Shown: piece by piece, positions 1,484 through 64,000 of the stretch
Numbering within the stretch: the first letter of the stretch is position 1
Layout: every line of letters begins with the position of its first letter
Assembly (NCBI GenBank): GCA_964106915.2
Contig: OZ066921.1
DNA from: Podarcis gaigeae
Lineage: Eukaryota
Length of the DNA: 64,000 nt
Strand: one strand, 5' to 3'
Program-made: the position numbers

Positions 1484-4400
1484 CACAAGAGAGAGACAGA
1501 GAGACAGAGAGAAAGAAAAAGGAAAACCACCGAACCAAAAGGATCTTTTTGCTTGAGCTGCTCACCCATTCTCTCTCCCCCGCCCCGCACCCCACCCTCT
1601 TGCAAAATACCCGTTTGCCTTAAAAACACTGACAGCTTTCTGGGAAAAGTCCCACGGGATACATTTAAAACCAGCAGATCTAAAAAGTTGCAGAGAGAGA
1701 TTCGATGAAGAACAAAAAGACACAGGTGTGCAAAGGAGGTGATGGAGGAGGGAAGATGGAGGCCCCGCGCAAGACGGAAGGAAGGTGAGCAGCGCCTTTC
1801 CACAGGGAATCCCAACGGTTCCGGGTCTTGGAGATGATTGACAGGTGCAGGAATAGCATTCTTGGGTTGTGGGGTTTTTGCTTTTTTTGGTATTATTATT
1901 TGTACAGTTCCACACATTGTTTGTTTTGTTTTAATACAGCCCTATATGAAAAGGATAATTAATTGCTTCTCTTTTTTTCATATTTGAGAGGAACGAAGCA
2001 ACTCATGAAAACGCCTTCCGGGTGTCACTTTCCCCCCCATGATCCAACCAAAGATTTGAGTTCCAAGATGTCTTGCTGAACAAATTAAAAGTTGTCCATG
2101 AAAGTGCAAATGTAATGACTAAACATTACCATTAAAATCCTGCAGCCGAAATTCTCGGCACTGCAGTCAGTTTCTTTTTTTTTTTTTAATAATTTTTTTT
2201 GTAGTTGTTGCATGTTTCTGCTAAAAACAGAAAATGAAAACAGTCTGAAAAGCAATGTCACATTGCTACGGGATGCTGCCGCCGCCGCCTCTTTCTTCAA
2301 GTTCCTTGGCCTTTTTCAATTCTTTCGCTCTGAAATGAAAGAAAAGGGAAAATGGGGGAAAGGTATGACGTTTCTGTTTCCAAAACCCTTGGTGTGAAAA
2401 ATGAAAAGGCATTATGCATTTCTTTATTGTTATTTTTTGGCAGAGGAAGTAACCACCTCATTTTTCTCCCATATTTCACTAATAGTTTAAGAAAAGAAAT
2501 AAATTAACTGTATCCAGTTGTCACAAAAGGCAAGTGTCATTTGAAGCAGCATCTAGGAAAAAGCTGGTGGGGGGGGAAAGAATAGCTTGAGCTCTGAAAA
2601 GACAGAAGATCTATCTGTAGACTGGTAGTTCCCATGTCTAGAATATATGCCAGTCACCTGTTCTGGATGCTGCTATGCTTCTTCTGAAATAACAGGTTTG
2701 CAGTTTGGGAGTGCTTATGGATCCACCTTTGTCCCTAGAAGCTCAGGAGGCCTCAGGAGCTAGGAATGTCTTTTACCAGCCTTGTTGGTGTGTCAAGTAC
2801 AGACGTTCTTGGACAGGGACAGTCTGGCCATGGTGATTTATGCATTGGAAGCCTCAATACTTGATTACTGCAATGCATCTACGTGGAGCTACCCTCAGGC
2901 CTTGTCCAGAGGCTTCAGCTGGTTCCAAACACTGTGGCTAGACTTGTTGGGGGTCTGACTGTCGCCAGCACAAACCTCTGGTGCTCAAGTTTGTACTGGC
3001 TGCCCATTCGCAACCAGGCCAGTTTCAAGATTCTTGTATTAATTTTCAATGTGTTTTAAGAATTTGGCTGCAAGACACCTGAAGGATGGCCTAATCCCTT
3101 ATATCCCTGTTCAATCACTGAGGTCTTCGGGGGGCATCACTGTTAGCAGTCCCATGTGGCTCAGATGCATGTAGCCGCACATTTAGCGTGGGCCCAATTT
3201 TATGAAACTCCTAATTGCAGTCAGACAGGTCCCCTGCCTACTGAACTTCTGGCATCTACTAAAAATATTTTTTTAATCCCAGCTGGTCTTTTAATTGAAG
3301 TTTGATTTTATAGTTTTAACTGGTTTATACTTTTTGTATTGCTTATTTGTAAATTGCTTAGACTATTGTAGTTAAGTAGTATATAAATGAATTATTTAAA
3401 TAAAAAACATTTAAATGTACATTAAAAAAAAATCCAGAGAGGTGGTGGTGCTTGATCCATATTGGAATCCCAGTAGGTAGCACGTAATGGTCTGTGTGCT
3501 TTTAACCCTTTGCCTTCTGCTGTGATCCTAATCAGGACCCTATACCTGCAGTTTGCATGGAGGAATAAAGCTCTCATCTAAACAAACAGGTGTTTTCACC
3601 CAAATTCCCTGCTGCTCACCAAGCAAGGTTCCTGATCTGGATTGCCCCTTCAGACACATGGCATTTTGTGTAAAAAAGACCAGCTACACGTAAAAGGTAC
3701 AGATACGTAGTGGTAGAAACATGGCAAGGGCTTCTTGTCTCTTCCTCAGCCCCACCTCTGGTCAAAAGCTGGCCAAGATAAGTTCAACATAAAGACCAGC
3801 CTTTCTCCTGAACCTTCTGTTGCAGTCAGCTGCATATGTAGGATCTCAAGGTATGCACAGGAACTCTCCATGAGACCAAGAATGATGCTCATTTCAAGGT
3901 GGGTTCAGACAACCTGCTCACAACCAGCTTGGTCATCTTTGCTGGACAGCGAGCATGCTGAAGGGATGAAAATATCATCTAGCAATGCACCTCCACTGGC
4001 TGAAGCCATGGGCAAGTTGTCTAGCGCCAACTGAAATTGTCAGACGAGTAACTCTTCCTGGTGATGGACTTATCCTGTCTTTTCTCTCTTTATGTGCCTC
4101 TGTTGGAGATAACACTGGTCTGCCAGGCTTCCCAACTGGCTCCTTGGCCAAGACAGAGGTTGGAATGACCTTTCCTTTTTTGCCCCATGAAGCTAGAAAC
4201 CTTTCCCTCTCTTTTATAACTGTCCACAAAGCCCTTTTGTCAAGCGTCTTCCCACCTCTCTCTTGACTTGCAACCTGGCCGGGTAGGCACACCATGTTCA
4301 CAGTGAGTTGAGGTAATAGACATGTTAAATTCAGAAAGAGGAGATAAATGTGTCAGGCCAGGCGTGCTTTTCCCATGCAAAGCCCACATTTTCCCATTGT

Positions 4401-61300: not shown

Positions 61301-64000
61301 GGAAGGAGGAAACCTCTCTAGAGTGGCACAAAAGTCTGAAGAGACTGCAAAAGTCTCTTGAATGTAAAGTACTCCTGTGGGGCACCCAGGAACACAGCCA
61401 GGGGGCTCAGCATGTACCTGTGCTTGGCTACCTCCATTGCCGCTGCCGTTGCCCCCACCACCACCTACGCCTTGCTTGTGCTGCTGCTGCTGGGACCCAG
61501 TCATTTCGGCCATCCTCCGCTCCATCTGCTCAAGTCGCTCCAGGATAGACATCCTGAACTGGTTCTCTGCGGCAACACAGGAGAGAAACAAGGAGAAAGA
61601 GAGTGAATCAGAGGGCTACTCCCATTCATGACATGGGGAGCAAAAGCAAAAGGCAAATCATTGACAAAAGGGTCCCAAGTCTTGAGAAGTCTGTAACCAC
61701 AAGGATGCATGTGGAGGAATCTGGGGGAATCAATGTGCTAGCAATTCTTCTTCTGCTCTTCTGCATCACACTGTCCTGCTTCTGAGTGCTTTCTTGGGTT
61801 TTCTCAACCACCCAAAACAGAATCAGCTTCTGTATTTAAACATTCTCAAAAAGAAAGCAATGCATGCCCAGGGTCTTTGGCACCTTCCAATGGATAGACC
61901 CAACAACAGCTAGCAGGCATGTAGGCTAAATGAGCCCTCCAAGTCACAGGCGTTTATCTTTGGATACCAAGGCACTGAGGATGGCCAGCTTGCATCCTTC
62001 CAAAAGCCTTAGTGAAACAGTGAGGAACCTCAGGCCTGGGGGACTTATGCAGCCCTCTTGGTGCATCTGGCACCAAGAGGACCACATAAGTCTCTGCACA
62101 AGCCACACCCACCACCGACCCTACTCTGCACTCTCAGGATGCTTCTGCCCTTGAAATGTCACAATGCATCTTGCTTGCCCAGATTTCATGTAGAAATCGT
62201 TCAGTCAACCATGTTACTTTTGAGTCACTGACCCTGCTTCTCTCTCAGGTGGGGGAATAGTGACGGAATTATATTTAGGGTACCAATGCCTTTGGAAGAC
62301 TGACAATCAAATGCAGAATGCAGCTGCTGGATTGGTGGGTGAAGCAGCCCCAAGGGGCCAAGCATCACCAATCCTGAAAGCGCTGCCCTAAACAGCCGGG
62401 ACCCAGGTAACCCCCCCCTTCAAATATCAACTATCTCAAGCCCTACAATTGGTGCTGCCACTTCTGGTAGTTGTTCAACTGGCACTGACTAGCGACAGGG
62501 TCCCTTTGGTGGTGGTTCGCCATCTGTGGTCCTCCCTGGTGAGATGCCTCTGTCTCTCTCAAAACTAACATTTAGGAGGAGTTTAAAAAACATTTCTATT
62601 TGATAACTGAGAAATTCTGATTCCACAAAGCTTGACATTATTAGCTGTTCTTTTCAGATGTCCTTAATTGCTTTAAATGTTTTATCTTATTTTAAACTAC
62701 ACTGTTGTTTGTCTCCCTGGGATCTTGGTGGTGCTGGGGGACAGAAATATGACAAGCAAATAAATATAACCTAGTTGGCCATTCCCCTACCCCAGATTCT
62801 TCCAGGCATCACCCACATGTTTGAGGGCCTAATATCTGCAGCCTGGAGGGGAAGGACTTTGCTGTACAGCATAACTATAGAATGACAGAGCTGCAGGACA
62901 TCTAGCCCAACCTTGTGCAAGGCAGAGATCTGCAACTACAGCACCCATGACAGCACCCTAACAGTATAGATAGAGCCCATCACCCCCAGAGGCTGCCTTG
63001 CTTCCACAGTGGAACACCTTGTACCATGAGGGGCATTCCTCCTTCCCATTTGCACCTTTGGCCTCTGGGCCTGCCCTCTGGAGCAAGGGAGAGAATCCAC
63101 GTACTCTACTTTAGGTGATGGTCATCAAGTGATGAACCTGCCTGGGGGAAAACCAGCTCTCCCATGCCCCAGGATAAATCCAGCTGGGGACTGAGATCCC
63201 TGACACTGTCAGATTTCGACGGGGGGGGGGGGACACTCCCTCTCTTGGGATTTCGCTCCACTTCCAGGGTGGCAAATCAAGGCAGGCAGTTCCACAGGCC
63301 ACCTCTTCCGGCTGAGTAGCCTATTTTGGGGGAGCACAGTTTGCAAAAATCACCCGCCCGCCATCTAGCTGTATACTAATCACACTATTGTCTAAAAATC
63401 GGCCCCGAGGGTCAACCAGTTCAAGGAGGCCTGGCACTTCCTTGGAGCGGGGGACGGGGCAGGCTTCACCACTTTCTTGCTCCAAACGCTTTCTCTCCCC
63501 GTCCCCCGCATTTCAAAACAAGTTTTCTTACATTTCGGACGCCCCGAGGGAGAGGTCGCCGCCGCTGCTGGCAGTGGGCGATCAGGAGCCTGCTCCCGAA
63601 GTAGGGGATAGCGAGGAACTTCCGTGGGGGGCGGGGGAGAAGAGGGCGCGTTCCTTCCCCACGTGCAGCTGGGAACTTTCCCCGCTCCTCGTCCGCGCCT
63701 GGCGCTCCCCCGGAGTCCGCTCCCACCTTCCGCGCTGGCCCCGCGGTGGCGCAAAAAAAGTGGGCAGGGCGGGAGCGAGGCGCACTTACCTGCCAGCCAG
63801 CTCGCCCGCCCGCCCGTGGGTCCCTTCGGACGCAGCCCGAGCGAGCGAGCGGCCGGCCAGCCCGCCGGGCTCTTTGGGCAGCCCTCCTTTTCCTTCCCCG
63901 CCTCTGCGCGGCCAATCCGCAGCGCGGAAAGTGACATCAGCCCCCGCTGCCGCCGGGGAGCGCCCGCTCGCCACACGCGCGCCGGAGCCAATGAGGAGCC

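What the first reader, a model, noticed from the sequence alone, without database searches (positions are those of the whole stretch)
2457..61955. 29.65-kb direct duplication with both breakpoints on a 200-N gap: probable false duplication of 12 CAMTA1 exons
Seen: copy 1 ends at the last base before the gap and copy 2 starts at the first base after it. Collapsing the two yields one intact gene. Copy 2 lacks the terminal exon because it starts 128 nt inside the last intron. If the duplication were real, copy-2 donors (phase 2 at 48039, phase 0 at 44181) would meet the phase-1 acceptor at 31712 and frameshift. Established: CAMTA1 is dosage-sensitive in mammals, and overlapping contig ends joined by fixed-size gaps are a known scaffolding artefact. 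Inference: this is an assembly artefact that will confuse annotation (split gene, false paralog, multi-mapping reads).
[Added by the scan's program, not by the reader: the finding's places include an assembly gap (unread letters, written N; its length is only estimated) at 32102 to 32301. Whether the letters on both sides are continuous or in frame is not known: test that first.]
Basis: partly seen in the sequence, partly recalled or inferred. Interest (0 to 1): 0.72.

Follow-up and report, generated by a model that had tools for sequence, protein, structure and literature searches.

The report
False duplication at an assembly gap
Two near-identical 29.6-kb copies of the 3' half of a lizard CAMTA1 gene sit on either side of a 200-N gap, and they are almost certainly the same stretch of genome assembled twice, not a real duplication.

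Summary
The window has one N run, 32102-32301. Bases 2457-32101 align as a single block to 32302-61955 at 99.87% identity, and both blocks run to the last base before and the first base after the gap.

The gene is CAMTA1 on the minus strand of a lacertid lizard. One exon is 99% identical to Podarcis raffonei and 61% to primates, so this is not human. Twelve exons lie in each copy and the terminal exon is present once.

New evidence:
- All 17 ordinary SNPs (12 transitions, 5 transversions) lie in the last 5.6 kb of the 29.6-kb unit (P = 5e-13 under uniform divergence). This looks like two haplotypes meeting at a homozygous/heterozygous boundary.
- The breakpoints share no repeat.
- Five annotated lacertids encode this region once.

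This matches the published pattern of overlapping contig ends scaffolded into a tandem duplication with a gap between. Read depth could not be tested. A real duplication, including a larger one whose junction lies in the gap, is not excluded (about 0.1). It is an ordinary artefact of low interest, useful only for curation.

The parts
1..2456 (.). Unique left flank: the end of the last intron, the terminal exon and the 3' region. It has no counterpart to the right of the gap.
   Evidence: the HSP starts at 2457; no match to 61956-64000.
2266..2329 (-). Terminal coding exon t, present once (coding 2329-2269, then TAG).
   Evidence: 21 of 21 residues identical to the P. raffonei X2 C-terminus, with an AG acceptor before 2329.
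2457..32101 (.). Copy 1 of the repeat (29,645 bp). It is the right end of the left contig.
32102..32301 (.). Assembly gap of 200 N. Not filled and not looked up.
32302..61955 (.). Copy 2 of the repeat (29,654 bp). It is the left end of the right contig.
61956..64000 (.). Unique right flank: intron upstream of exon a. No CAMTA1 exon was found here. A CpG-rich stretch lies at 63501-64000.
26514..32101 (.). SNP-bearing tail of copy 1 (partner 56369-61955). It holds 17 of 17 ordinary SNPs and 20 of 28 difference events.
2457..26513 (.). SNP-free 24,057 bp of copy 1 (partner 32302-56368). It has 8 differences: 7 in homopolymer or short-repeat contexts and one 6-bp indel.
31564..31712 (-). Exon a, copy 1 (phase 1 to 0).
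30209..30405 (-). Exon b, copy 1 (0 to 2), ankyrin-like.
29254..29332 (-). Exon c, copy 1 (2 to 0).
28594..28909 (-). Exon d, copy 1 (0 to 1). Codon 100 is ATT (Ile).
27175..27689 (-). Exon e, copy 1 (1 to 0). This is the exon used for the protein search.
25037..25224 (-). Exon f, copy 1 (0 to 2).
24086..24332 (-). Exon g, copy 1 (2 to 0).
23421..23492 (-). Exon h, copy 1 (0 to 0), IQ-like.
21914..21934 (-). 21-nt microexon m (LTWIALK), copy 1 (0 to 0).
19612..19805 (-). Exon i, copy 1 (0 to 2), IQ motif.
18192..18266 (-). Exon j, copy 1 (2 to 2).
14334..14364 (-). Alternative 31-nt exon k, copy 1 (2 to 0).
61418..61566 (-). Exon a, copy 2, identical to copy 1.
60063..60259 (-). Exon b, copy 2, identical.
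59108..59186 (-). Exon c, copy 2, identical.
58448..58763 (-). Exon d, copy 2. It carries 1 difference: codon 100 is GTT (Val).
   Evidence: The look-up failed for this exon.
57030..57544 (-). Exon e, copy 2, identical.
54892..55079 (-). Exon f, copy 2, identical.
53937..54183 (-). Exon g, copy 2, identical.
53272..53343 (-). Exon h, copy 2, identical.
51765..51785 (-). Microexon m, copy 2, identical.
49463..49656 (-). Exon i, copy 2, identical.
48039..48113 (-). Exon j, copy 2, identical, with a phase-2 donor.
44181..44211 (-). Exon k, copy 2, identical, with a phase-0 donor.

Best explanation
The 'duplication' is an assembly artefact. One genomic stretch, the 3' half of CAMTA1 in a lacertid lizard, was built twice: once as the end of the left contig and once as the start of the right contig. 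The two contigs overlap by about 29.65 kb, were never merged or trimmed, and a scaffolder placed them next to each other with a fixed 200-N spacer. Shown: the overlap geometry, the clean run of both copies to the contig ends, the gene structure, and the distribution and type of the differences. Inferred: the two builds come from the two haplotypes of one diploid animal. They are identical for 24 kb, apart from homopolymer and short-repeat length calls and one 6-bp indel, and differ at about 3 SNPs per kb in the last 5.6 kb. The assembly graph probably branched at that homozygous/heterozygous boundary near 26.5 kb. The left contig would then follow one haplotype for 5.6 kb and stop, while the right contig follows the other haplotype and reaches back roughly one long-read length into the shared part. 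If so, the true gap length is negative, and the gene has one set of exons a-k followed by the terminal exon.
For: 1. Geometry. There is one HSP, 2457-32101 = 32302-61955, at 99.872% identity. Homology is cut only by the N run, and the last and first 60 nt are identical to the partner copy. Any dovetail overlap of two contigs gives exactly this picture.
2. Differences. There are 28 events. All 17 of 17 substitutions outside homopolymer or short-repeat contexts fall in the last 5,588 of 29,645 bp (P = 4.8e-13 under uniform placement). Adding back the 4 homopolymer/short-repeat-context substitutions gives 17 of 21 (P = 1.3e-9), and 20 of all 28 events lie there (P = 2e-9). Transitions to transversions are 12:5. 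The differences therefore look like real variation between two DNA molecules rather than read noise, and they are patchy like heterozygosity rather than even like paralogue divergence.
3. Breakpoints. The breakpoints share no repeat. Left flank against right flank gave no hit, right flank against the repeat gave no hit, and left flank against the repeat gave only an (AG)n run.
4. Gene logic. All 12 exons in both copies have AG/GT sites. The phases chain correctly from a to j to the single terminal exon. Serial splicing from copy 2 into copy 1 would run into a stop inside exon a after 11 codons (from exon j) or 21 codons (from exon k).
5. Relatives. Annotated CAMTA1 proteins of P. raffonei, P. 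muralis, P. lilfordi, Lacerta agilis and Zootoca vivipara are 1507-1657 aa for the long forms listed, so they carry one set of this region. Exon by exon, the window's 699 residues differ from P. muralis X1 at no more than 2 positions.
6. Literature (passages read). [quoted passage not shown] 10.1101/729962 describes heterozygous overlaps kept among primary contigs. A published squamate assembly (a skink) marks its gaps with 200 Ns (PMC12134992).
Against: No reads, depth, k-mer spectra or alternate assembly were available, so the defining property of half depth on each copy is untested. A graph assembler could also break at a true tandem junction, because that point is itself a branch point. 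The exact abutment is therefore strong evidence but not proof. A 24-kb stretch with no SNP next to 3 SNPs per kb needs patchy heterozygosity, which was assumed and not measured for this animal. An overlap of 29.6 kb is long if the reads were typical HiFi reads, and the read technology is unknown. No DNA of related lizards could be compared, because the collections on hand hold no vertebrate genomes. Single copy in relatives therefore rests on annotated protein lengths only.
Confidence: 0.9

Rival explanations
1. A real intragenic tandem duplication of exactly this 29.65-kb unit. Its copy-1/copy-2 junction happens to be where the assembler broke, and the scaffolder bridged it with 200 N.
For: The sequence as written shows it. 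The 12:5 transition bias shows that the copies derive from two different DNA templates. In an assembly graph the junction of a tandem repeat is a branch point, so a break there is conceivable (inference). Intragenic CAMTA1 duplications exist in humans (PMC4741010, passages, citing Thevenon 2012).
Against: The junction is the one unique part of a tandem duplication and is normally the easiest to assemble, yet no base of it is present. Divergence is far from uniform (P = 4.8e-13), so a homogenising event of about 24 kb would be needed. The breakpoints share no repeat. Serial splicing gives a premature stop in a highly conserved gene. Five annotated lacertids show one set of these exons.
Confidence: 0.04
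2. A real but larger segmental duplication whose unit extends beyond both contig ends, with its junction hidden in a gap of unknown true size. Copy 2 would then own a terminal exon inside the gap. The locus would be a complete CAMTA1 followed by a 3' partial copy, with no frameshift.
For: Homology truncated by contig ends is also expected under this model. The gap length is only an estimate. Near-identical real duplicates do break assemblies.
Against: The SNP clustering is the same problem as for the exact tandem duplication. The model needs unseen sequence to carry the whole argument. Nothing in the annotated lacertid proteins hints at an extra 3' copy, although a partial copy might go unannotated. 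A gap between a duplicated pair is listed in print as a mark of false rather than true duplications (PMC9516828).
Confidence: 0.05

Closest known systems
False tandem duplication from overlapping contig ends (Rhie et al. 2021, PMC8081667, Extended Data Fig. 5b type 1 and the combined case of Fig. 6c; 'heterozygous overlap' of purge_dups, 10.1101/729962)
   Same: Two adjacent contigs of one scaffold share their ends in direct orientation and are separated by an assembly gap. Part of the overlap is identical (homotype-like) and part carries haplotype-like SNPs (heterotype-like).
   Different: Depth and k-mer evidence, which the papers use to call such cases, is missing here. The overlap of 29.6 kb may be longer than one read, but the read type is unknown.
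False exon or gene gain caused by false duplication (Ko et al. 2022, PMC9516828)
   Same: Coding exons of one gene are repeated next to themselves with a gap between, at a homozygous/heterozygous boundary. Split or '-like' gene models would be expected.
   Different: Whether an annotation of this assembly was actually misled was not examined. The cases in that paper were confirmed against a second assembly of the same species.
Pathogenic intragenic CAMTA1 duplications in humans (Thevenon et al. 2012, seen only as cited in PMC4741010)
   Same: A tandem repeat of internal CAMTA1 exons predicted to disrupt the reading frame.
   Different: The human cases involve exons 3-5 (CG-1 domain) and were shown in patients. 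Here the 3' ankyrin/IQ exons are involved, in a lizard assembly, with no junction sequence, and the repeat is most probably not real.

Membership tests
False duplication by overlapping contig ends | The two copies are direct, on one scaffold, and separated by an assembly gap. | tested here: met
False duplication by overlapping contig ends | Homology runs to the very end of one contig and the very start of the next (dovetail). | tested here: met
   the alignment ends at 32101 and starts at 32302, and the terminal 60 nt are identical to the partner.
False duplication by overlapping contig ends | About half read depth (or lower) on each copy. | not testable with these tools
   No reads are available.
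False duplication by overlapping contig ends | Differences between the copies are allelic (haplotype-specific 1-copy k-mers). | tested here: inconclusive
   Transitions to transversions are 12:5, and 17 of 17 ordinary SNPs lie in 19% of the unit. This fits alleles, but allelism itself needs reads.
False duplication by overlapping contig ends | No read spans the copy-1/copy-2 junction, and reads join copy 1's end to the sequence after copy 2. | not testable with these tools
   No reads are available.
Real tandem segmental duplication | A sequenced junction joining the end of the unit to its start. | tested here: not met
   The junction position is occupied by 200 N. What lies there is unknown.
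Real tandem segmental duplication | Divergence spread evenly over the unit, absent conversion. | tested here: not met
   P = 4.8e-13 and P = 1.3e-9 with all substitutions.
CAMTA1 (calmodulin-binding transcription activator 1) | Collinear, near-identical match to annotated CAMTA1 orthologues. | tested here: met
   the match covers aa 952-1656 of P. raffonei X2, with at most 2 of 699 residues unmatched against P. muralis X1 (exon by exon).
CAMTA1 (calmodulin-binding transcription activator 1) | Ankyrin repeats and IQ motifs in the C-terminal half. | tested here: met
   single exons: IQ scores 27.9 bits against a cut-off of 20.3 (exon i). Ank (17.7 against 21.1) and IQ_SCN5A_C (25.3 against 27.7) fall below their cut-offs on isolated exons. 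The full-length orthologues carry PF12796, PF00023 and PF00612.
CAMTA1 (calmodulin-binding transcription activator 1) | CG-1 DNA-binding domain and TIG domain. | not testable with these tools
   These are encoded upstream of aa 952, outside the window.

The most novel reading that the evidence does not exclude
The duplication is real: a very young partial duplication of the 3' ankyrin/IQ half of CAMTA1 in one lacertid lineage or individual. It would be either exactly tandem or larger with its junction in the gap. Its first 24 kb would have been homogenised by unequal crossing-over or conversion, and splicing or a second terminal exon would keep the gene working.
Probability: 0.08. Interest if true: 0.35.

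Novelty: not a real feature. Interest (0 to 1): 0.08.

Why it matters
As biology it matters little. As curation it matters locally. Left in place, the extra 29.65 kb would give annotators a frameshifted or split CAMTA1, or a false 'CAMTA1-like' partial gene. It would halve apparent read depth and mapping quality over 12 exons and create a false copy-number signal in a conserved neuronal transcription factor. The case also shows that the position and type of the differences between two copies can, without reads, help separate an allelic overlap from a paralogue.

Tried and rejected
- Repeat-mediated (NAHR) origin: blastn of the unique flanks against each other and against the unit found nothing but an (AG)n run. 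This mechanism is not supported.
- Read noise as the source of the differences: rejected for the 17 ordinary SNPs (12 transitions to 5 transversions). It stays possible for the 7 differences in homopolymer or short-repeat contexts in the first 24 kb.
- An exon upstream of exon a in 61956-64000: tblastn with P. raffonei X2 and with the N-termini of five short isoforms found none.
- Rfam scan of the whole window at gathering thresholds: 0 matches.
- Pfam on single exons: mostly empty. 6 of 10 exons had no family, and only the IQ hit of exon i passed its cut-off. This is expected for fragments.
- The copy-2 look-up of exon d failed, because a SNP lies in the anchor. It was redone.
- Human origin: rejected (61% identity to primates against 99% to Podarcis).

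Not done:
Phases were taken from each exon's own frame and length.
- The gap was not filled or looked up.
DNA-level single-copy status in other lacertids therefore stayed unchecked.
- The supplements of PMC9516828 and PMC8081667, which hold example loci and size distributions of false duplications, were not seen.
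Full report
**Observation.** The window holds a single run of N, 32102-32301, 200 letters long. 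I aligned everything left of the gap against everything right of it with blastn. This gave one HSP and no other: 2457-32101 pairs with 32302-61955 at 99.872% identity over 29,658 columns, with 21 mismatches and 7 gap openings. Copy 1 is 29,645 bp and copy 2 is 29,654 bp. The 60 bases that end at the gap are identical to the 60 bases ending at 61955. The 60 bases that start after the gap are identical to 2457-2516. Both ends of the repeat are therefore defined by the N run and not by a loss of similarity.

**The gap note.** Neither flank of the gap is coding. The left edge lies 389 nt upstream (in gene sense) of exon a of copy 1. The right edge lies in the last intron, 11,879 nt from the nearest of the 12 mapped exons (copy-2 exon k) and 4,260 nt from the candidate alternative 3' exon at 36562-36745. 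No reading frame crosses the gap. The letters on the two sides do not continue each other: the left side is the end of the repeat unit and the right side is its start.

**Whose gene.** The largest exon (27172-27690, minus strand) was searched alone against the protein collection. It gave 319 proteins at E <= 0.001 among 1,495 candidates, of which 120 were listed. The best hits were CAMTA1 of Podarcis raffonei (99%) and Zootoca vivipara (98%). Other squamates scored 71-86% and primates about 61%. The window is therefore from a lacertid lizard and is not human. Taken exon by exon, the 699 residues encoded here leave at most 2 unmatched against Podarcis muralis isoform X1.

**Gene model, exon by exon.** I made and searched no joined coding sequence or protein. 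Each exon was compared on its own, and phases were derived from each exon's own frame and length.
- tblastn with P. raffonei isoform X2 (1,656 aa) gave 21 HSPs: ten pairs, one member in each copy, plus one unpaired HSP at 2331-2269. Together they cover residues 952-1656.
- A 21-nt microexon (LTWIALK) and a 31-nt alternative exon (seen in Zootoca X3 and Hemicordylus X4) are also present in both copies.
- In copy 1 all 12 have AG and GT at their borders. In copy 2, 11 were identical to copy 1 with AG/GT. The twelfth (exon d) was checked: it has AG/GT and one difference, ATT to GTT (Ile to Val) at codon 100.
- The phases chain without a break: a (1 to 0), b (0 to 2), c (2 to 0), d (0 to 1), e (1 to 0), f (0 to 2), g (2 to 0), h (0 to 0), m (0 to 0), i (0 to 2), j (2 to 2), then the terminal exon starting at 2329.
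- The terminal exon exists once. Copy 2 begins at the 128th base of the last intron counted from the acceptor.

**If the copies were spliced in series.** Copy-2 exon j has a phase-2 donor at 48039 and exon k has a phase-0 donor at 44181. Either would meet the phase-1 acceptor of copy-1 exon a at 31712. Exon a translated alone in the two shifted frames reaches a stop after 11 and 21 codons.

**What the differences say.** One search lists 28 difference events.
- From 2457 to 26513 (24,057 bp) there are only 8. Seven lie in homopolymer or short-repeat contexts: four substitutions (three at G- or T/G-runs and one in a GA run), two homopolymer length changes and one unit of a CCAT repeat. The eighth is a 6-bp indel.
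- From 26514 to 32101 (5,588 bp) there are 20 events, including all 17 substitutions that are not in homopolymer or short-repeat contexts.
- Under uniform placement, the chance that all 17 fall in that 18.8% of the unit is 4.8e-13.
- With the 4 homopolymer/short-repeat-context substitutions that I had set aside put back, 17 of 21 gives 1.3e-9. Twenty of all 28 events gives 2e-9.
- The 17 substitutions are 12 transitions and 5 transversions. They are real differences between two DNA templates and not consensus noise.
- Only one of the 28 events lies in an exon.

A stretch of identity next to a stretch with about 3 SNPs per kb is what two haplotypes of one diploid animal look like across the edge of a shared-ancestry tract. 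Two paralogues that diverged after a duplication would differ evenly, unless 24 kb had been homogenised afterwards.

**Breakpoints.** The unique left flank (1-2456) and the unique right flank (61956-64000) share nothing with each other. The right flank shares nothing with the unit, and the left flank shares only an (AG)n run with it. There is no substrate for repeat-mediated duplication. This does not exclude a non-homologous event.

**Relatives.** The long CAMTA1 isoforms listed for P. raffonei, P. muralis, P. lilfordi, Lacerta agilis and Z. vivipara are 1,507-1,657 aa. Each therefore carries one set of these exons. This is protein-level evidence only, because no vertebrate DNA collection was available.

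**Comparison with what is known** (passages read, not whole papers).
- Rhie et al. [quoted passage not shown] They also describe combined heterotype and homotype cases at contig boundaries, and state that purge_dups was written because partial false duplications at contig boundaries were not being removed.
- Ko et al. 2022 (PMC9516828) list the hallmarks: half depth, a gap between the duplicated pair on the same scaffold, discordant reads and 1-copy k-mers. [quoted passage not shown]
- The purge_dups preprint (10.1101/729962) describes heterozygous overlaps kept among primary contigs.
- A published squamate assembly (a skink) marks its gaps with 200 Ns (PMC12134992). That a particular scaffolder writes 200 N by default is my recollection, not a result.
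- CAMTA1 haploinsufficiency and intragenic duplications in patients are reported in PMC4741010 (abstract and passages), which cites Thevenon et al. 2012. I did not read that cited paper itself.

**Most likely mechanism.**
- Shown: the geometry, the clean contig ends, the gene logic and the pattern of differences.
- Inferred: the assembly graph branched where the two haplotypes start to differ, near 26.5 kb. The left contig followed one haplotype for 5.6 kb and ended. The right contig followed the other haplotype and began with a read that reached back about 24 kb into the shared sequence. The overlap was not trimmed, and the scaffolder set the two contigs side by side with a fixed spacer.
- On this reading the real genome has one copy, the gap has negative length, and CAMTA1 is intact. 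I put this at 0.9.

**Rivals.**
- A real tandem duplication of exactly this unit (0.04). It needs the assembler to have stopped at the one unique point of the structure, a 24-kb homogenisation, and a broken or oddly spliced conserved gene.
- A larger real duplication whose junction, and a second terminal exon, lie in a gap of unknown size (0.05). It escapes the frameshift argument and also explains why homology stops at the contig ends. It shares the SNP-clustering problem and rests wholly on unseen sequence.
- Neither rival can be excluded without reads.

**Verdict.** This is an ordinary assembly artefact of a well-described kind. It is worth flagging for curation and is not a biological feature. 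What stayed unchecked: read depth and spanning reads, k-mer multiplicity, DNA of other lacertids, and the supplementary files of the two false-duplication papers.

Noticed in passing
window 63501-64000: A CpG-island-like stretch (GC 0.708, CpG observed/expected 0.95) sits about 2 kb upstream of exon a of copy 2. The 5 neighbouring 500-bp windows checked (61001-63500) have CpG o/e of 0.04-0.31. Short CAMTA1 isoforms of lacertids (about 700 aa) start inside exon a, so this may be an internal promoter. The alternative N-terminal exon of P. raffonei X5 was not found in the window.
   Followed up: partly
window 6717-6900 (and 36562-36745): A candidate alternative 3' exon on the minus strand, preceded by a polypyrimidine tract and an AG. 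It is 70.6% identical over 34 residues to the C-terminus of Hemicordylus capensis CAMTA1 isoform X4. If used, it would be a 13th exon inside each copy.
   Followed up: partly
window 14334-14364 and 2300-2329: Including the 31-nt exon k shifts the frame of the terminal exon. The protein then ends in SERIEKGQGT instead of AKELKK...GGGGSIP, as in Zootoca vivipara isoform X3.
   Followed up: yes
window 28612 / 58466: This is the only coding difference between the copies: exon d codon 100 is ATT (Ile) in copy 1, as in P. raffonei, and GTT (Val) in copy 2. If the copies are alleles, this is a heterozygous missense site.
   Followed up: yes
window 32413 and 32422: Two substitutions at a G-run lie 112 and 121 bases from the start of the right contig. 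These may be consensus errors near a contig end.
   Followed up: no
window 1446-1516, 7454-7513, 14477-14531, 19467-19505: Microsatellites (AG)n, (AAGA)15, (GGGAGA)n and (CCAT)n. The CCAT array differs by one unit between the copies.
   Followed up: no
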